A model generated the notes under the pieces. The model was given only the letters and a program-made list of their open reading frames with translations. It ran no database searches and was not told the origin of the DNA. From contig DAJQ01000023.1 in assembly GCA_002496395.1 (NCBI GenBank), forward strand, positions 1-63,307: a stretch of 63,307 nt of DNA, written 5' to 3'. Position numbers and translations under genes: made by a program. This document shows positions 1,206-9,452 of the stretch, piece by piece (position 1 is the first letter of the stretch; each line of letters starts with the position of its first letter). The stretch comes from Methanocorpusculaceae archaeon UBA456 (GTDB lineage: Archaea > Halobacteriota > Methanomicrobia > Methanomicrobiales > Methanocorpusculaceae).

Positions 1206-1829
1206 TCAGTCCTTTCCCTTCGGGGCAGATCGTCTTTCCCAGACGTAGAGGATGGGAAAAGAAACGACACCAATAAGCACGATTGCCTGGAGGAGGGGAA
1301 GAACAGGATACCCCAGTGCAAGGTAGCGCAGAACAATGATCACGGCTGCCATGAGGTAGAAGACAACTGATCGTGCAAGGGTGACGCGGCGCTCCCCGGC
1401 ATCGATGAAGACGATGCGCATCAGGAGCAGGCCAATGATGACAAGGACAGGGAGCCAGAATACCTGGTTGATGGAGTATGTAAGGGACGCGTAGAGATAG
1501 ATCAGGAAGATCACGACGGCAAGGACGGCATCGGTCACCTTCTCAACGAGGGCTCTTCTCTGCTTCGTCTTCTCCTCTCCCTGTTCTCCCAACCGGAGGG
1601 CGTGATGGAGACTGCTTATGGGGTTGGGGTCGTGCAGATTTTCCTTCCGCCTGTACCACACCATGACACAGAAATATATTGCAGTGAGGATCGCTGCCAG
1701 AGGAAATGCAGAAGCCGTGGATAACGGCAAGTAGCCACCCACGGTGGGAATAGCAATGATGAGAAACAATATCCAGTAGATTGCGAGTGAGCGCAAGAAT
1801 TCCTCTTTGACGATATGATCAATCCTCAT
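1206..1829 (-). CDS. Polytopic membrane protein (207 aa, about 6 TM segments)
   Basis: Several hydrophobic stretches; its ATG overlaps the upstream stop (ATGA at 1826-1829). Confidence 0.75.
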   Translation of the reverse strand: MRIDHIVKEEFLRSLAIYWILFLIIAIPTVGGYLPLSTASAFPLAAILTAIYFCVMVWYRRKENLHDPNPISSLHHALRLGEQGEEKTKQRRALVEKVTDAVLAVVIFLIYLYASLTYSINQVFWLPVLVIIGLLLMRIVFIDAGERRVTLARSVVFYLMAAVIIVLRYLALGYPVLPLLQAIVLIGVVSFPILYVWERRSAPKGKD

Positions 1830-2299
1830 GCGTACACCACCGACGCGCCAGCAGGAATTGCAAAGGTGAATTCATTAAGACAGTACCAATTAACTCCAGT
1901 CGATAGAATCTGATTACTTCCTGTAATATCCGGCCCGGCCGTAATCACAGCCGGAACCTCTACCGAATGGGGCCTGAAATGTTCCGTAACAACATTGTTT
2001 GCCAAATCAAGAGTCCAGACATCCTTTCCATCCGAGATCGTTTCGCTCCCGGAGTCAAACTCCGTCAACTTAAACTTAGCCGGTTTTTTCAGGATATAAT
2101 CTTTAAATTCGAGATATTCAGCTCCGGAGAATTCTGTAGTAATTGTAACTTCCCCTGCCATGTCATTGGTTGCTTCATACTTGGCCAAGGTACGATTGAC
2201 AATCACATCAGCTGTCAGCCCACCATACGCATCGACACATCCTGCAATAACGATGATGGAAACAAGGATTAAACTGAAAACAACTCCACTTCTTACCAT
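1826..2299 (-). CDS. LolA-like lipoprotein (short)
   Basis: Start MVRSG at 2299 after GGTGGTGA; lipobox-like IAGC; KKPAKFKL...ISDGKDVWTLD and C-terminal FTFAIPAGA resemble the LolA/outer-membrane lipoprotein-sorting family. Confidence 0.7.
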   Translation of the reverse strand: MVRSGVVFSLILVSIIVIAGCVDAYGGLTADVIVNRTLAKYEATNDMAGEVTITTEFSGAEYLEFKDYILKKPAKFKLTEFDSGSETISDGKDVWTLDLANNVVTEHFRPHSVEVPAVITAGPDITGSNQILSTGVNWYCLNEFTFAIPAGASVVYA

Positions 2300-2319
2300 A
2301 TTCACCACCCTCTCTAGCA

Positions 2320-2601
2320 TCAAAGTGACGGCATCCTCCCGTAAAAGGCTATCAGGAAGCACGCAACAAAGAGAAAAACCGCCAACAACGACCTATACCA
2401 ACGTCCAACACCAGGATGAATATCGGCAGGAAGTTTAACGGATCGCAGGAATGGAACCGACAGAGCCACTGCCAATGCATACAATACTGACGACAACAAA
2501 TTTGCCTGACCTATGTATTCTGGATACCAAATCGGAACAGCAAAACGGATGACCGTGGAGACCGCAAAAAGGAGCAAAAAAGTGAGGAGGGGTCTCAACA
2601 T
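2320..2601 (-). CDS. Small membrane protein (93 aa, about 3 TM), candidate immunity protein
   Basis: ATG at 2601 overlaps the last codons and stop of the halocin-like gene; almost entirely hydrophobic. Confidence 0.6.
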   Translation of the reverse strand: MLRPLLTFLLLFAVSTVIRFAVPIWYPEYIGQANLLSSVLYALAVALSVPFLRSVKLPADIHPGVGRWYRSLLAVFLFVACFLIAFYGRMPSL

Positions 2602-3326
2602 AGCCCAGCACCTTCACATGCCAACCTTGCATTCCAGTTGCATGCTTCGTAAGCTACAAGGAACTCACATAGTACAAAACAAGAACCGGCACAAATAACA
2701 ATAAATGCCGGGTGCATTGGTTTTAAGCAGAGAGCACCGCAAACCTCCGCGCATGCTCCGGATACAAGACCCGAACATACACCAGAGACTGCCCACATGC
2801 AAAAGTCGCATACAACCCCATCATCCCTCGTCTGGCCTCCACCCATGGGATCGTATCTCAGGTAGGAGACCATGCCATCATGCGCAACAACTGCTCGCGC
2901 ATCTTTCCCGAGCTCGTTACTGGCAAACACTAGGAAGGCTTTTTCATCGGATGCTGTCTTGGTGAGGTGCATTGTTACAAGAGTAGTGGTTACGGTCATA
3001 CTTTCGTTCGTTGTAACACCACTAATAACTCGAATCTGCTCGGTAGAAAGGGTAAATCCATCGCCGAGCAATGCATCCTTCAGGTGCCGAACAGCAGTAT
3101 CCGAGAGTGCCTCTGCAATTGCAGCATTTTTCGCATCTCCAGTGAGCTCATCCGAACTCACTACGGTAGTGGAGTCGTTTGCCACTCCATCGCTCTTAAT
3201 AAACGAACAACCGGGACAGGTTCCCGGTTCAAGAGGCTCGCAAGCCATCGCCGGCACAGTCGCAACACTCACCAGCAGTACTGCCAGGAGCACAGAGAAT
3301 GCCCGCATCCTAAAGTTTTCTTTCAT
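2595..3326 (-). CDS. Halocin C8-like precursor (243 aa: signal peptide, pro-region, 76-aa Cys-rich C-terminal domain)
   Basis: Start MKENFR at 3326 after GGAGG; signal ends AMA|C; last 76 aa (DDGVVCDFC...NARLACEGAGLC) carry 12 Cys and end like halocin C8 (ACNRAGLC, recalled). Confidence 0.8.
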   Translation of the reverse strand: MKENFRMRAFSVLLAVLLVSVATVPAMACEPLEPGTCPGCSFIKSDGVANDSTTVVSSDELTGDAKNAAIAEALSDTAVRHLKDALLGDGFTLSTEQIRVISGVTTNESMTVTTTLVTMHLTKTASDEKAFLVFASNELGKDARAVVAHDGMVSYLRYDPMGGGQTRDDGVVCDFCMWAVSGVCSGLVSGACAEVCGALCLKPMHPAFIVICAGSCFVLCEFLVAYEACNWNARLACEGAGLC

Positions 3327-3534
3327 GTGTTTTCCTCCGGTTTCTTTCCCCGGAAGCAGGTGAAACATACCTACAAGCGTATAGAACGCGTACGTTCCCT
3401 TTGCCTCCGGGCATGCAGGGCGTGTCATCCGGTCGTCAACCAGGGATGGGCAACCCCTGCCTTTTTGCGGCGACATTTCAATGCATCCACACAATGACTT
3501 GAACAGCGATCCATTTAGAAATTCTCTCCAATTC
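3265..3534 (-). repeat. Leader plus signal-peptide duplication, copy 1
   Basis: 3265-3354 matches 4811-4900 and 3401-3534 matches 4946-5080 at high identity, with a diverged core of about 45 nt between the blocks. Confidence 0.9.
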
Positions 3535-3807
3535 CTCGACACATCCGGGACGTCTCTTCATCACGTTAACTCGAATAAATGGTTCCTATGAGTACCCTTC
3601 CGTTCAGATCAGGGGCAAACCCGTCGGGATGGCAGGTATCGGATATATTTTGTCCTTCCTGAATTAGAAGCGATTCTAAAGAGGGATGATCTGTAAATAT
3701 CTTATTATTCGCATACAATCACCAATTGTAAAGATAATTGGCCGAAATAGATGGAAGAAGGATGATTGATAATCTGAGATTACGTAGATGGTATCAATAT
3801 ATCAACT

Positions 3808-4143
3808 TTATTTGTTTTCGCCCTCTCTCCCCCTCCGAATAAGGTAAAATCCAACGACAAACAAGATCGCGACTCCGAGCAGGGTACCTGCCAGAAGAAC
3901 GGGATGATAAAACACGCTAAAAGAATGTGATGAACCATGATATGCCACTGTATCACCATGATTGGACGTCTTCGAAGCTGCGTGTATGGTTTCTTCGTTA
4001 TCTGTCACTGAAAGCCAGACATGTGACGAATCGATCTCACTATCTTCAACCAGACTACCGGATGCATACACTATGCCATTGCTGGCAAAGATACAGCATA
4101 GCAGAATAATGCTGATCATCCATCCTCTACCAGTACTATTCAT
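3808..4143 (-). CDS. Small exported protein with C-terminal TM anchor (111 aa)
   Basis: N-terminal signal; C-terminal GDTVAY..SFSVFYHP, hydrophobic helix, RRGR; paralog at 31912-32262. Confidence 0.7.
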   Translation of the reverse strand: MNSTGRGWMISIILLCCIFASNGIVYASGSLVEDSEIDSSHVWLSVTDNEETIHAASKTSNHGDTVAYHGSSHSFSVFYHPVLLAGTLLGVAILFVVGFYLIRRGREGENK

Positions 4144-4207
4144 AACCCTTCTTGCTCCATTCTTCTTTTTTTATGCGTAATAAACAAGTAAATGACGAAT
4201 CTTCACT

Positions 4208-4872
4208 CTAAGACACATGCATTATATTCGTTTGTGTATGCGATAACGATGGGCTGTAGATAAAACCTGGTGGAGCATAAAAGAGGTGAGCCCCATTGGT
4301 GAAATAGTAACCTGACTCTGTAACCGTTTTACTGCTCTCTGCCTTAAGATTATAGGTCCCTTCATCGTTCTCGTACACATAATCGATAATCGTACCTGTC
4401 TGGCCATTTGGATCAAGCTTGCACAGGGCACTGGTAATCTCGCCGTACGGCATCCGTAAATAGGGAGGGAATACAACCCAGGACTCACTTCGATAGTCGA
4501 TCTCCCGACCACTAGCATCAATATCTGAAATGTGGCGCATCAGTATCGCGTTTCTCGTCGTCAGGATGTCGATAAACAGGGATTCCAGTTTGGATGCATC
4601 ATGCTGTATAACCTGAACCATATCATTTTCGTATTATAATACTCGTTTTGTATCTCAATTGGTAATTTTGAGAATTCTACAGGAGTAATTTTCTCGTAAA
4701 ATTCTCCCATAGAGATGTCCTTCCCCCGAAAATCAGTGACTATCGCAATGGATTCATCACCGGAAAACTCATTGGCTACCTGTGCAGCTACAGTTGGCAC
4801 CACGGCACCCACGCTCACCAGCAGTACTGCCAGAAGCACGGAGAATGCCTGCATTCTAATTTTCTCTTTCAT
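4208..4872 (-). pseudogene. Secreted protein split by a frameshift near 4620
   Basis: MKEKIRMQAFSVLLAVLLVSV... frame ends at 4561; an overlapping frame (QVIQHDASK...IMHVS) continues to 4208. Confidence 0.6.
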
Positions 4873-5080
4873 GTGTTTTCCTCCAGTTTCTTTCCCCGGA
4901 TGCGGAAGAGGCACACGTTTAAGTACGCAGAGTGTGTATCTTTTTTTGCCTCCGGGCATGCAGGGCGTGTCATCCGGTCGTCAATCAGGGATGGGCAACC
5001 CCTGCCTTTTTACAGACTTCATTTCACTGCATCCACACAATGACTTGAACAGCGATCCATTTAGAAATTCTCTCCAATTC
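4811..5080 (-). repeat. Leader plus signal-peptide duplication, copy 2
   Basis: Direct repeat of 3265-3534. Confidence 0.9.
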
Positions 5081-5361
5081 ATTTACACGTCAGCAGGTTT
5101 TTGCCGAAAGTGAACGGTTAAACCCTCCCAGGAAGATGAGGAACGGGAGAGAGCCCATTCTCACGGCGTCATATGCTGTACGGAACGCAAGAAGGCCCAA
5201 ACTGCCGCACTTGCGCACCCCCTGTACCCGAAGACCGGGTTCTGCGGACGGAACAGGCAGGCCTGCCGGCCGATAGCATAAACCCTATCAGCCATGAGCA
5301 ACAGATCAATCAATCTATACGAAAACCTGCCGAAGCCGAAACGCTCTGAACGTGAGATACT

Positions 5362-6152: not shown

Positions 6153-6926
6153 TCAGATACTGGTACCGGACACACGCCCCTCGGAGAACGCGGGCTTCCA
6201 CGCTCCGTGGGTTTGTACACACTCTTTTGCATCGGCGCAGAGGTAGTAGTGTACGAACCGTCCATTCCTCTCACCTCTGACAATACCGCCCCGGAGCAGC
6301 GGTTTCATATGCCAGGTGATGTTCGCACCCGACATTATAAGGTGGGAAGCGATCTCTTTTCTCGTGCTTCCCGGGTGTTGCAAAACGATATTGAGTATCA
6401 GACTCTTTGACTGCTCGTTGAGATATCCTGCCACCCTTCGTTCCAGATCGGAGCAGGCGGCCGTGTTGGCGTAATATCCCATGCGTCCGCAATTCTGCTC
6501 GGGAACGACCGTTCCCATCCTGCATAACATCTCTAGGTGGTAGCGTAGGGTTCCAATATTCATCCCGAGCAACCGAGAGAGAGAGCTTGTATTGATTCCC
6601 GGATTATCCCGTATGCACAGATATGCTGCATTCCGGGGTTCGTTCTCAAGGACGTTATGGTGCAGGACCCTCTTATGGCCGAAATGCAGCCATGCGAGCA
6701 GCGAGAATACAAGTTGTATCGGGATAAAGAGCGCCGGAGCAAATACGGATACGAGCCTGAGGATCACAATGTTCAGGGGTTCGTTCCAGATGTACACCGG
6801 AGTCAGATCCAAAGTCACCTGCTCAGGATTTACGTCCTGAACAGCAGTAGCAGATGCGACAGACGGCAACAGTACGAGGCAGAAAAAGATCAGAGCAATT
6901 CCGGCAATCCACACCCGCCTGACCAT
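6153..6926 (-). CDS. Membrane-tethered tandem winged-HTH transcriptional regulator
   Basis: Signal plus TM N-terminus, then two wHTH units (IRDNPGINTSSLSRLLGMNIGTLRYHL; LQHPGSTRKEIASHLIMSGANITWHMKPL). Confidence 0.8.
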   Translation of the reverse strand: MVRRVWIAGIALIFFCLVLLPSVASATAVQDVNPEQVTLDLTPVYIWNEPLNIVILRLVSVFAPALFIPIQLVFSLLAWLHFGHKRVLHHNVLENEPRNAAYLCIRDNPGINTSSLSRLLGMNIGTLRYHLEMLCRMGTVVPEQNCGRMGYYANTAACSDLERRVAGYLNEQSKSLILNIVLQHPGSTRKEIASHLIMSGANITWHMKPLLRGGIVRGERNGRFVHYYLCADAKECVQTHGAWKPAFSEGRVSGTSI

Positions 6927-7008
6927 GGATTTACATAAAACCTGTAGTTATAAAAAGATTTGGTTTGATTGGAGTTCGGCTTTGTTGAAATCATGTGAGA
7001 GGCAATCA

Positions 7009-7443
7009 TTAAACATAAGCATTGCAATTCAGAGCATACATAATAGTTCCTGTTACACTCTCTCCATACACTATAAGGCTCCAGGTACCTGATGCAGGGC
7101 TGCTTATATCCACGCGGATTCGTCCATTCAGGTATCCATCATAATTGTCATAGTACGAACCATACAGGCTCCCATCCGGCCTGTAGATCTCCAATCTCAG
7201 GGAATGATCGGGAGTAAACCAATTTAAGTCGACATTCAGGAAGGGCATACCGGCGGGTACATTGAACAGAAGAGTATCAGTTTCCCCCTGCGTGATCGTA
7301 AAAAACTCACGGGTTCCATATCCATCCATCTGCGAGAGAAGTCCCACAGGCCTGTCATTTTCACATCCGATACCTGTAGCTGAAACCATCGGCACGATGA
7401 AGGCGATGACAGCCAGAAGTCCTATAACGCGGCTGATCTTCAT
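7009..7443 (-). CDS. Small secreted protein with a PPC (pre-peptidase C-terminal)-like beta domain
   Basis: Start MKISR at 7443; signal ends VSA; VDLNW...LRLEIYRPDG...PASGTWSLIVYG is typical of PPC-like domains. Confidence 0.7.
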   Translation of the reverse strand: MKISRVIGLLAVIAFIVPMVSATGIGCENDRPVGLLSQMDGYGTREFFTITQGETDTLLFNVPAGMPFLNVDLNWFTPDHSLRLEIYRPDGSLYGSYYDNYDGYLNGRIRVDISSPASGTWSLIVYGESVTGTIMYALNCNAYV

Positions 7444-7754
7444 TAAAATCCACCGATAAGACATCGGAAGACCTCTGTATAAAAATTCTGTCCGATTTCT
7501 TTACACGTTTTATATATGCAGGCTGGACAGTGACTTGGGCAGGGAGAGGGAGTCAGGGTGTTTCCGGAACATCGCGCGAGATCTCGGACATTCAACCGAG
7601 AATCATCCGGATCTGCACCTTCATCGAAGAACAGGTGCAGCAGGGTGATGTTTTGCGCGGCGGGTTTTTGTCCGTTGCGCTGTGCAATCCCCCTGCAACC
7701 GCATGAGCAGCCACCTCCACCCGTCCTTTGTTCTAACTTCAATAACCCTCGCCC

Positions 7755-9104: not shown

Positions 9105-9268
9105 GGCATCACCGTCAGTAACCAACCATAATATGCGTTCATAAACCCATATGGTGCTATTTCAGACTCCACTAAGGGATGATATTCCGACTCATTATTA
9201 ACATTTACTGCTGGCACAACACACATGCACAACAGTAATATGGCAAAAGACACGGAGAGTGCCTGCAT
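9101..9268 (-). CDS. 55-aa signal-peptide-bearing small ORF
   Basis: Manual translation MQALSVSFAILLLCMCVVPAVNVNNESEYHPLVESEIAPYGFMNAYYGWLLTVMP*; N-terminus resembles MQAFSVLLAVLL of the 4872 gene; below the track cutoff. Confidence 0.5.
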   Translation of the reverse strand: MQALSVSFAILLLCMCVVPAVNVNNESEYHPLVESEIAPYGFMNAYYGWLLTVMP

Positions 9269-9364
9269 TGCATTTTTCCATTCATATAACCATTCTCCCG
9301 GTTATGTCGCAGGCACATCATCAAGGCTCACATACTGACTTGTTGACCAGCTAATTTATTATCT

Positions 9365-9392
9365 CTCTCCAATTCCTCGACACATCCGGGAC
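9365..9392 (-). repeat. Third partial copy of the cassette upstream region
   Basis: 28 nt identical to 3524-3551 (ctctccaattcctcgacacatccgggac); weaker similarity continues to about 9420. Confidence 0.85.
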
Positions 9393-9414
9393 ATCCCTTC
9401 CTCACGTAAGCTCG

Positions 9415-9452
9415 AGTCAACTACCCCCTCCGTTAGGTGGGGGTAGTTGACT
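9415..9452. repeat. Perfect 14-bp inverted repeat resembling an IS200/IS605-family end
   Basis: AGTCAACTACCCCC, 10-nt loop, GGGGGTAGTTGACT. Confidence 0.7.

What the first reader, a model, noticed from the sequence alone, without database searches (positions are those of the whole stretch)
2595..3326. Halocin C8-like antimicrobial precursor in a methanogen
Seen: 243 aa made of a Sec-type signal (28 aa, no twin-Arg), a pro-region of about 139 aa, and a 76-aa hydrophobic tail (2598-2825) with 12 Cys ending ARLACEGAGLC. Known (recalled): halocin C8 of Natrinema is the 76-aa, 10-Cys C-terminus of ProC8, ends ACNRAGLC, is Tat-exported, and its N-terminal part confers immunity. Inference: a disulfide-rich archaeocin. 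How six possible disulfides would form in a strict anaerobe, and the switch from Tat to Sec export, are both unexplained.
Basis: partly seen in the sequence, partly recalled or inferred. Interest (0 to 1): 0.85.

Follow-up and report, generated by a model that had tools for sequence, protein, structure and literature searches.

The report
Halocin C8-type peptide precursor in methanogen
This methanogen gene encodes a secreted precursor that is a true but divergent relative of the haloarchaeal antimicrobial peptide halocin C8, in an operon with a small membrane protein; it is a new variant of a known archaeal weapon, and its activity is untested.

Summary
Window 2595-3326(-) is an intact 243-aa ORF with a Sec-type signal, a 139-aa pro-region and a 76-aa hydrophobic tail with 12 Cys.

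The halocin C8 reading is supported. TIGR04449 matches end to end at the curated cut-off (20.9 and 24.4 bits; cut-off 24). A profile-profile comparison with haloarchaeal ProC8 gives 98.5% probability (E 2.6e-15) from the HalI helix-loop-helix to the last Cys.

The Tat-to-Sec switch is explained, because the 99%-complete genome has no TatC.

Cys gains and losses across 53 C8 domains fall in four nested pairs (184-229, 192-220, 196-216, 200-212). AlphaFold2 predicts two long helices (pLDDT 79). Together these indicate a helical hairpin stapled by a disulfide ladder, and this subfamily adds the rung 196-216.

The gene heads a translationally coupled operon: a 93-aa three-segment membrane protein, a shortened LolA-like lipoprotein and a 207-aa membrane protein. 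The operon recurs in other methanogens. There it also includes a thioredoxin-DsbD fusion, which this genome lacks.

Halocin C8 homologs in methanogens, including a Methanoculleaceae MAG, are already listed in a 2026 preprint supplement. Processing, disulfides and killing activity are untested.

The parts
2595..3326 (-). Precursor CDS (243 aa plus stop), halocin C8 family
3334..3338 (-). GGAGG ribosome-binding site, 7 nt upstream of the ATG
   Evidence: read from the sequence
3243..3326 (-). Sec-type signal peptide, aa 1-28, with predicted cleavage AMA|C; no twin-Arg
   Evidence: TatC absent from the genome; cleavage site inferred
2826..3242 (-). Pro-region aa 29-167, a HalI-like domain: N-terminal Cys motif C29..C37PGC40, helix-loop-helix aa 63-88, then a six-strand sheet
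   Evidence: hhalign to ProC8 starts at aa 58; AF2 pLDDT 70-87 over aa 55-160; Pfam PF22862 itself does not match
2598..2825 (-). C-terminal C8-type domain aa 168-243: 12 Cys, predicted helix 170-200, loop LKPMH 201-205, helix 206-240
2320..2601 (-). 93-aa basic membrane protein with three hydrophobic segments; its ATG overlaps the precursor stop (ATGTTGA); candidate cognate immunity or partner protein
   Evidence: found directly downstream in every subfamily locus
1826..2320 (-). Shortened LolA-like lipoprotein (164 aa from the ATG at 2320; lipobox-like IAGC); its start overlaps the 93-aa stop (TGATG)
   Evidence: full-length relatives are 332-341 aa with LolA_like plus DUF4367
1206..1829 (-). 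207-aa polytopic membrane protein joined by an ATGA overlap
   Evidence: conserved in L037 (64%), L038 and L041
3327..3600 (-). Upstream leader and promoter region, duplicated at 4873-5091 (84%) and partly at 9329-9415
   Evidence: no Rfam match
6153..6926 (-). Membrane-tethered double winged-helix regulator (HTH_HVO_0163_N plus HTH_24) that recurs next to C8 loci
7009..7464 (-). Small secreted PPC-domain protein, paired with the regulator, that recurs next to C8 loci

Best explanation
The gene encodes a pre-pro-peptide of the halocin C8 family.

Shown:
- It is homologous to haloarchaeal ProC8 from the HalI helix-loop-helix through the C-terminal Cys-rich domain.
- Its leader is Sec-type, and the host has no Tat pathway.
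- The C-terminal Cys co-vary as nested pairs.
- It heads a four-gene, translationally coupled operon that is conserved in other methanogens.

Inferred:
1. After Sec export and signal cleavage (AMA|C), the HalI-like pro-domain keeps the very hydrophobic tail soluble and inactive.
2. The tail folds into an antiparallel helical hairpin stapled by a ladder of up to six disulfides: 200-212, 196-216, 192-220, 184-229, then 176-237 and 173-243.
3. An unknown protease cuts near R167/D168 and releases a peptide of about 7.8 kDa.
4. Like halocin C8, this peptide attacks the envelope or membrane of competing archaea, most likely related methanogens.
5. The producer is protected by the pro-domain and/or by the co-translated 93-aa membrane protein. 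The LolA-like lipoprotein would chaperone the hydrophobic peptide.

I put family membership at about 0.93. The full mechanism, a secreted, processed, disulfide-stapled antimicrobial, I put at about 0.6.
For: Homology:
- TIGR04449 matches positions 1-69 of 69 at 20.9 and 24.4 bits.
- An independent HMM built from 19 canonical C8 domains scores 23.4 bits, E 2.8e-7.
- hhalign of A2 against A5 gives 98.5%, E 2.6e-15, over 178 columns from aa 58 to 243.
- The subfamily profile finds 95 representatives; of the 78 scanned, 25 hit TIGR04449 and one hits NF040679 halocin_of_epi.

Tail properties and structure:
- All ten framework Cys of the Natrinema-type peptide are present.
- Size, GRAVY and pI are similar to that peptide.
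- Four nested co-varying Cys pairs, all with i+j = 412-413, have Fisher p from 5e-11 to 4e-4. All other pairs have p > 0.08.
- AF2 gives a helix-loop-helix with pLDDT 79.

Export, selection and context:
- TatC is absent while the controls are positive.
- dN/dS is 0.26.
- The precursor-plus-small-membrane-protein pair with overlapping stop and start is found in all subfamily loci. In the multi-precursor locus L041 each precursor has its own small membrane protein.
- A Trx-DsbD_TM fusion sits inside the operon in L004, L041 and L042, and a LolA-glutaredoxin/thioredoxin fusion in L030.
- Halocin C8 biology (HalI immunity, the 76-aa peptide, lysis of sensitive cells) is taken.
Against:
- Both curated models sit at or below threshold: TIGR04449 is 20.9 bits on the protein, and PF22862 gives no hit.
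- This genome lacks DsbD/CcdA, VKOR and the Trx-DsbD fusion that sister loci carry, and its LolA-like gene is shortened. Maturation may therefore be impaired or different here.
- Disulfides are hard to maintain at methanogenic redox potential.
- The Cys co-variation statistics are not corrected for phylogeny.
- The pairing of 173, 176, 237 and 243 is extrapolated, because those positions never vary.
- Foldseek found no significant structural relative.
- No methanogen archaeocin has been demonstrated, to my knowledge.
Confidence: 0.6

Rival explanations
1. The protein belongs to the same family but is not a weapon. It stays on the producer as a surface or membrane protein, with the C-terminal hydrophobic hairpin serving as a membrane anchor or envelope-inserted module. 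Alternatively the released peptide is a signal or self-recognition factor rather than a toxin.
For: The tail is as hydrophobic as a transmembrane hairpin: GRAVY 1.08, with 19-residue Kyte-Doolittle windows up to 2.4. The locus carries a membrane-tethered regulator plus a small secreted PPC protein that recurs beside C8 loci, which would fit a sensing circuit. The mode of action of halocin C8 itself is unresolved. Nothing here demonstrates cleavage.
Against: The only characterised family member is a released, lytic peptide with pro-domain immunity. The loci have several divergent precursors, each with its own small membrane protein, and fast-evolving tails (tail dN is nine times pro-domain dN in L004/L036). 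That pattern is typical of toxin-immunity diversification. Nested Cys pairing with acidic residues in both helices fits a soluble stapled hairpin better than a lipid-embedded anchor.
Confidence: 0.2
2. The cassette is a decaying remnant of a horizontally acquired archaeocin cluster and no longer makes an active product in this organism.
For: The cassette is sporadic: none of the 8 other same-genus genomes and only 5 of 201 genomes of the order carry a C8 domain. The LolA-like gene keeps only its N-terminal half, and the Trx-DsbD gene present in sister clusters is missing. The copies in UBA206 (L001) and in L002/L009 are frameshifted, and many database members are fragments. In L001 the cassette has 50-53% GC against flanks of 61-72% GC, most of them above 62%.
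Against: The precursor ORF, its ribosome-binding site and the overlapping start/stop junctions of all four genes are intact. The same four-gene arrangement, with a 99%-identical precursor, occurs in an independent metagenome (L038). dN/dS is 0.26 and all 12 Cys are kept. The frameshifts in MAG contigs may be assembly errors.
Confidence: 0.12
3. The tail Cys bind metal or an iron-sulfur cluster, or stay as free thiols, instead of forming disulfides. The domain would then be a redox or metal module of a secreted protein.
For: The organism is a strict anaerobe. No DsbD/CcdA or VKOR gene was found in the genome. DsbD-type partners in sister loci deliver reducing power, not oxidising power (family knowledge for PF02683).
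Against: Cys are gained and lost strictly in nested pairs with constant i+j. That is the signature of pairwise cross-links across a hairpin, not of four-Cys metal sites. There is no His/Asp ligand pattern and no CxxC...CxxC knuckle arrangement. The family prototype is known for its stability (recalled, not checked here).
Confidence: 0.05

Closest known systems
Halocin C8 precursor ProC8 (HalI plus HalC8) of Natrinema sp. AS7092 / N. altunense (TIGR04449 halocin_C8_dom plus Pfam PF22862 Hac8_like_N)
   Same: Same order of parts: signal, helix-loop-helix-containing pro-domain, and a Cys-rich hydrophobic peptide of about 76 aa ending ...AC-x-x-AGLC. All ten framework Cys are conserved. Profile-profile homology runs from the helix-loop-helix to the C-terminus. 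Tail size, hydrophobicity and pI are similar.
   Different: It has a Sec signal, not Tat, and the host lacks TatC. It has 12 Cys, not 10; the extra pair is 196-216. The acidic linker of about 60 aa between pro-domain and peptide is missing. Pfam PF22862 does not match and TIGR04449 sits only at the cut-off. The neighbours differ: there are no halT-type ABC transporters, and there is a small membrane protein, a LolA-like protein and a 207-aa membrane protein instead. None of these were found by tblastn in the Natrinema-type locus L039.
Sec-type halocin C8 homologues of methanogens and bacteria listed in preprint 10.64898/2026.07.27.741052, Table S2 (Methanoculleaceae UBA207, Methanosarcina, Methanolobus, Methanococcoides, Methanoperedens, the 'WOR-3' MAG, Staphylococcus epidermidis NF040679)
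   Same: The window protein belongs to the clade that contains the listed 'WOR-3' entry (L003, 40% identity). It very probably also contains the UBA207 entry; that entry was not fetched, and the closest fetched relative is UBA206 at 87%. They share Sec export and the N-terminal domain of HalI size.
   Different: The preprint only lists these proteins. It does not describe the 12-Cys subfamily, the conserved methanogen gene cluster or the Cys pairing, and it reports no conserved neighbourhood for the bacterial copies.
Cystine-stapled helical hairpins: saposin-like proteins (NK-lysin, amoebapores), plant alpha-hairpinins, CHCH twin-Cx9C domains
   Same: An antiparallel helix pair cross-linked by nested disulfides, about 80 aa long and lipid- or membrane-active. 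The best Foldseek hits of the tail model are open-form saposins.
   Different: The similarity is not significant (E 0.4, TM 0.39) and there is no sequence relation. Saposins have three disulfides and four or five helices. This is an analogy for the mechanism, not family membership.
Unmodified (class II) bacteriocin operons with a small membrane immunity protein directly downstream
   Same: A secreted peptide gene is co-translated with a small, basic, multi-pass membrane protein. Multi-cassette loci have one such protein per precursor.
   Different: There is no double-glycine leader and no dedicated ABC exporter. The large pro-domain is N-terminal and is itself an immunity factor in the prototype. 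The family is archaeal.

Membership tests
Halocin C8 family (ProC8-like precursors) | C-terminal halocin_C8_dom (NCBIfam TIGR04449) above the curated cut-off of 24 bits | tested here: inconclusive
   20.9 bits (E 5e-4) on the protein, covering model positions 1-69 of 69. 24.4 bits in the six-frame genome scan, just over the cut-off.
Halocin C8 family (ProC8-like precursors) | Significant profile-level homology to bona fide haloarchaeal ProC8 | tested here: met
   hhalign gives 98.5%, E 2.6e-15, over 178 columns. The subfamily profile retrieves canonical C8 proteins, 25 of the 78 hits scanned, with best TIGR04449 E 6e-13. An independent C8 HMM gives E 2.8e-7.
Halocin C8 family (ProC8-like precursors) | Ten-Cys framework of the mature peptide, including the C-terminal ...C-x5-C | tested here: met
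   All ten framework columns are Cys, plus two extra at 196 and 216.
Halocin C8 family (ProC8-like precursors) | N-terminal HalI-type domain (Pfam PF22862 Hac8_like_N) with the helix-loop-helix | tested here: inconclusive
   Pfam gives no hit even at E <= 10, whereas the Natrinema-type protein scores 164 bits. However, the hhalign alignment begins at the helix-loop-helix (aa 58-88) and AF2 predicts two helices at 63-88.
Halocin C8 family (ProC8-like precursors) | Twin-arginine (Tat) signal peptide | tested here: not met
   There is no RR in this protein or its subfamily, and no TatC in the genome. This is not strictly defining, because bacterial members use Sec.
Halocin C8 family (ProC8-like precursors) | Proteolytic release of a peptide of about 76 aa; antimicrobial activity; immunity from the pro-region | not testable with these tools
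   This needs mass spectrometry and bioassays.
Halocin C8 family (ProC8-like precursors) | halU-halR-halC8-halT1-3 gene neighbourhood of Natrinema | tested here: not met
   No ABC transporter lies within 10 kb. The methanogen neighbours have no tblastn match in the Natrinema-type locus L039. A regulator is present, but it is a membrane-tethered double winged-helix type; halR itself was not compared.
Saposin-like / cystine-stapled helical hairpin peptides | Significant structural match to a solved member | tested here: not met
   Best Foldseek hit has E 0.4 and TM 0.39.

The most novel reading that the evidence does not exclude
The HalI-like pro-domain is a general carrier for interchangeable Cys-ladder peptides in methanogens. 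It sits in multi-precursor loci: a PPC protein plus a membrane regulator, then precursor / small membrane protein pairs, a LolA-like lipoprotein and a thioredoxin-DsbD fusion. These would form a polymorphic toxin-immunity system that makes disulfide-stapled peptides under strictly anoxic conditions.

Support here:
- About 30 of the profile hits carry the same pro-domain with a tail that shows no detectable relation to the C8 domain and that often begins W-x-C (hhalign probability 0.25%).
- One genome (L041) holds three precursors, each with its own small membrane protein, around an IS element.
- The window would be a reduced version of such a system.
Probability: 0.35. Interest if true: 0.7.

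Novelty: new variant of a known kind. Interest (0 to 1): 0.45.

Why it matters
To my knowledge, no antimicrobial peptide made by a methanogen has ever been demonstrated. A working halocin C8-type system would show how methanogens compete in anoxic communities such as digesters, sediments and guts. It could also give a narrow-spectrum tool against methanogens.

The nested Cys pairing derived here gives a concrete connectivity for the whole halocin C8 family that mass spectrometry can test. To my knowledge that connectivity has not been determined experimentally.

The operon-encoded thioredoxin-DsbD fusions in sister loci make the question of how an obligate anaerobe handles a peptide with 10-12 Cys outside the cell experimentally approachable.

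The practical point for annotation is that the current Pfam and NCBIfam thresholds miss this subfamily.

Tried and rejected
Searches that gave nothing:
- Pfam scan of the precursor gave no family.
- PDB sequence search gave nothing relevant.
- Foldseek of the full model and of the tail model against PDB gave no hit with E < 0.1. The saposin and StART-like top hits are noted only as analogies.
- Rfam on 2300-5300, including the duplicated leader, gave no match.
- The sigma-70 promoter and terminator scan was uninformative for an archaeon.

Genome searches:
- There is no second pro-domain or C8 copy in the genome.
- Three searches for the Trx-DsbD fusion or its DsbD_TM domain in the genome found nothing: a protein search, a custom HMM on six frames and PF02683.
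- VKOR is absent.
- GC content of the locus is 0.50 against 0.52 for the genome, so it gives no clear sign of recent transfer into this genome.

Tools and papers not available:
- Makarova et al. 2019 (mBio) and Mei et al. 2008 (J Bacteriol) are not held. What I say about them is recollection or comes through the preprint.

Ideas considered and rejected:
- A lipobox reading of PAMAC was not adopted, because positions -3 and -2 are non-canonical. It was not tested.
- The 315-aa GTG start at 3542 was rejected in favour of the ATG at 3326, because of the ribosome-binding site and the N-termini of the homologues.
- The idea that the W-x-C tails are divergent C8 domains was tested and rejected (hhalign probability 0.25%).
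Full report
**1. Observation**

Window 2595-3326 on the minus strand translates to a 243-aa protein ending ARLACEGAGLC. A GGAGG lies 7 nt before the ATG, and all full-length homologues begin at the same Met. The longer GTG frame listed by the ORF finder is therefore unlikely.

The N-terminus MKENFRMRAFSVLLAVLLVSVATVPAMA|C looks like a Sec signal with an A-x-A site. Neither it nor any subfamily member has a twin-Arg. The haloarchaeal relatives I fetched carry NRR[NKS][VF]L.

The last 76 residues (D168-C243, nt 2598-2825) hold 12 Cys, and three more sit at 29, 37 and 40. The tail is 7.85 kDa, GRAVY 1.08, pI 4.2. A Natrinema-type halocin C8 peptide found here (L013...DIDITGCSACKYAAGQVC...ACNRAGLC) is 7.44 kDa, 0.89 and 4.1.

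The cleavage positions are set by analogy only.

**2. Family**

Curated models are marginal.
- Pfam finds nothing.
- NCBIfam TIGR04449 (halocin_C8_dom) matches residues 173-243 over the whole model at 20.9 bits, below the 24-bit cut-off. It scores 24.4 bits in the six-frame genome scan.

Three further tests settle the homology.
- A profile of ten subfamily members (A2), compared by hhalign with nine Tat-type haloarchaeal ProC8 sequences (A5), gives 98.5% probability and E 2.6e-15 over 178 columns. The alignment runs from residue 58 to 243, so it covers the HalI helix-loop-helix, the beta domain and the C8 domain.
- The same profile, searched against 1.84 billion representative proteins, finds 95 proteins at E <= 1e-3. 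I scanned 78 of them: 25 hit TIGR04449 (best 6e-13) and one hits the Staphylococcus 'halocin_of_epi' model.
- An HMM I built from 19 canonical C8 domains scores the window protein 23.4 bits.

The protein is a divergent member of the halocin C8 family. Pfam's HalI model PF22862 recognises the Natrinema-type protein at 164 bits but none of the methanogen proteins.

**3. Distribution**

The close subfamily has only about ten 90%-identity clusters among 5.8 billion proteins. Named records place it as follows:
- Methanomicrobiaceae UBA206 (87% identity)
- a Methanomicrobiales MAG (75%)
- two 'Methanobacteriota' MAGs (40%)
- a 'WOR-3 bacterium' MAG (40%)

In whole genomes, a C8 domain occurs in 5 of 201 Methanomicrobiales, in none of the 8 other genomes of the same genus, and in 23 of 401 genomes of the phylum. 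It is a sporadic accessory gene.

The cassette in UBA206 has 50-53% GC inside flanks of 61-72% GC, most of them above 62%, and it is frameshifted. That suggests lateral movement.

The preprint 10.64898/2026.07.27.741052 already lists C8 homologues in Methanoculleaceae UBA207, Methanoperedens, Methanococcoides, Methanolobus, two Methanosarcina, Thermococcus, Thermoplasmata, Metallosphaera and the same WOR-3 MAG. 'Halocin C8 in a methanogen' is therefore catalogued, though not analysed.

**4. Tat versus Sec**

TatC (PF00902) is absent from this 99.4%-complete genome, while the control search rings in 11 of 14 reference genomes. Sec export is therefore the only option. Sec-type leaders are also reported for bacterial homologues.

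**5. The cysteines**

I aligned 53 non-identical C8 domains and scored presence or absence of Cys at the 12 window positions.

| Pair | Both Cys | Neither | One only | Fisher p |
|---|---|---|---|---|
| 196-216 | 29 | 20 | 4 | 5e-11 |
| 184-229 | 43 | 9 | 1 | 2e-9 |
| 200-212 | 47 | 5 | 1 | 2e-6 |
| 192-220 | 48 | 3 | 2 | 4e-4 |

Every other pair has p > 0.08. All four pairs have i+j = 412-413, which is the register of an antiparallel hairpin. Positions 173, 176, 237 and 243 never vary; 176+237 = 413.

AlphaFold2 on the tail with 26 sequences gives pLDDT 79 and two long helices, at residues 170-200 and 206-240, around the loop LKPMH. The full-length model agrees at lower confidence.

I conclude that the C8 domain is a helical hairpin stapled by a ladder of nested cross-links. 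This subfamily adds one rung, 196-216, to the canonical five. Some Methanosarcinales-type members have swapped the rung 200-212 for it.

The statistics are not corrected for phylogeny. However, the losses occur in several unrelated branches, in both methanogen and haloarchaeal sequences. Pairwise behaviour argues for disulfides and against multi-Cys metal sites.

**6. How disulfides are handled**

In sister methanogen loci the operon contains a secreted thioredoxin-fold domain (CxDC) fused to a DsbD_TM/CcdA membrane domain (PF02683 at 39 bits). This includes loci of this same subfamily, L004 and L041. In another locus the LolA-like protein carries a CPHC glutaredoxin/thioredoxin domain. A dedicated extracytoplasmic thiol-redox partner is thus part of the ancestral cluster.

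The window's genome has none. My HMM of the fusion finds nothing, and the PF02683 scan finds nothing in this genome, although 20 of the 41 genomes scanned (this genome and its relatives) have a DsbD_TM match. VKOR is absent too. The source of oxidising power in this organism remains open.

**7. Gene context**

The precursor stop overlaps the ATG of a 93-aa basic protein with three hydrophobic segments (ATGTTGA). That gene's stop overlaps the ATG of a LolA-like lipoprotein (TGATG), and that gene's end overlaps a 207-aa polytopic protein (ATGA).

The 93-aa gene follows the precursor in every subfamily locus, again with overlap. The LolA-like gene follows in all loci long enough to show it. It is 332-341 aa there (LolA_like plus DUF4367) but only 164 aa here, after an internal deletion relative to L037. 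An independent metagenome contig has the same four genes with a 99%-identical precursor.

Other archaeal C8 genes are also followed by a small hydrophobic ORF of 49-151 aa that BLAST does not relate to the 93-aa protein.

In genome G400 (L041) one 15-kb locus holds, in order:
1. a PPC protein
2. a membrane double winged-helix regulator
3. precursor 1, a 97-aa membrane protein, a LolA-like protein and a Trx-DsbD fusion
4. a third precursor with a non-C8 tail and its own 126-aa membrane protein
5. an IS element
6. precursor 2, a 114-aa membrane protein, a LolA-like protein and the 207-aa-type protein

One small membrane protein per precursor is the pattern expected of toxin-immunity pairs.

The PPC-regulator pair of the window (6153-7464) occurs only twice in this genome. 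Even so, it lies beside C8 loci in four or five other genomes, including a canonical signal-less C8 gene of a complete Methanomicrobiales genome. None of these neighbours is found in the Natrinema-type locus.

**8. Selection**

Against L037 (67% identity), dN/dS is 0.26 overall: 0.24 for the pro-domain and 0.14 for the tail, with dS saturated. In the pair L004/L036 the tail's dN is nine times that of the pro-domain (0.30 against 0.033), while the Cys are kept. The gene is under constraint, and the tails can diversify quickly.

**9. Mechanism and rivals**

The best-supported reading is a Sec-exported pre-pro-peptide. Its HalI-like domain shields a disulfide-stapled hydrophobic hairpin until an unknown protease releases it to act on the envelope of competitors. 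Protection of the producer would come from the pro-domain and/or the 93-aa protein.

Homology, export route, Cys pairing and operon structure are shown. Cleavage, disulfides, target and immunity are inferred from the prototype and from the gene arrangement.

The rivals are:
- a non-weapon role as a surface anchor or signal
- a decaying cassette
- metal binding

Each is weighed in its own section of this report.

**10. Novelty**

This is a new variant of a known kind. It has the same architecture and ancestry as ProC8. It differs in having a Sec leader, no acidic linker, a sixth Cys pair, a different and conserved accessory gene set, and scores below the thresholds of the current models.

Earlier notes of this scan describe similar C8-like cassettes in other lineages. 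I used them as leads only.

Noticed in passing
window 3255-3600, 4801-5091, 9215-9420 (minus strand): A block of about 330 nt (upstream leader plus signal-peptide coding) is repeated three times on this contig and nowhere else in the genome. Copies 1 and 2 are 84-99% identical. There is no Rfam match.
   Followed up: partly
window 4208-4959 (minus strand): A second unit with the same leader and signal peptide encodes two overlapping ORFs (132 aa at 4561-4959 and 137 aa at 4208-4621). It has no HalI-like domain and no Cys-rich tail. It is either a frameshifted gene or two genes, and its function is unknown.
   Followed up: no
window 6153-7464; also C19:777-2350 of the same genome; L004 1893-3111; L041 3493-4729; L042 9167-10391; L040 8967-10016: A small secreted PPC-domain protein paired with a membrane-tethered double winged-helix regulator forms a two-gene module. 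It has only two copies in this genome but recurs next to halocin C8-type loci in several methanogens.
   Followed up: partly
L003 (JAGLZA010000417.1, 'candidate division WOR-3 bacterium'): This 4.7-kb contig has the archaeal cassette in the same order (PPC protein, precursor, small membrane protein, LolA-like). Its precursor is 84% identical to that of an archaeal MAG (L005), with similar GC (0.41 against 0.43). It may be a mis-binned archaeal contig rather than a transfer into bacteria, as the 2026 preprint suggests.
   Followed up: partly
L001 7801-9207 (Methanomicrobiaceae UBA206): The cassette has 50-53% GC against flanks of 61-72% GC (most above 62%), is 83% identical in DNA to the window, and its precursor is frameshifted. 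This is either recent lateral transfer or a chimeric assembly.
   Followed up: partly
proteins P0013, P0030, P0036, P0037, P0062, P0070, P0086, P0094, P0098 and others; L041 10203-10817: About 30 profile hits share the signal, Cys motif and HalI-like pro-domain but end in different Cys-rich hydrophobic tails of 45-75 aa with 8-18 Cys, often beginning W-x-C. These tails show no profile similarity to the C8 domain (hhalign probability 0.25%).
   Followed up: partly
L007 and L008 (Methanomicrobiales genomes G186 and G139): These canonical C8-domain proteins (58 bits) of 183 aa have no signal peptide at all. Each is followed at once by a 59-aa ORF with two hydrophobic segments. How they would be exported is unclear.
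   Followed up: no
alignment A3 (hits): Two of the proteins that match the subfamily profile also match rhodanese-domain models (for example NF045521 at 4.8e-19). I did not look at them.
   Followed up: no
L041 12240-13275: An IS-type transposase pair sits between precursor cassettes of the three-precursor locus. This fits cassette shuffling.
   Followed up: no
window 1826-2320: The LolA-like gene keeps only the N-terminal half of the 341-aa form in L037. Its last 15 residues match sequence beyond the L037 gene end, which indicates an internal deletion of about 740 bp. That deletion may also have removed a downstream gene.
   Followed up: partly
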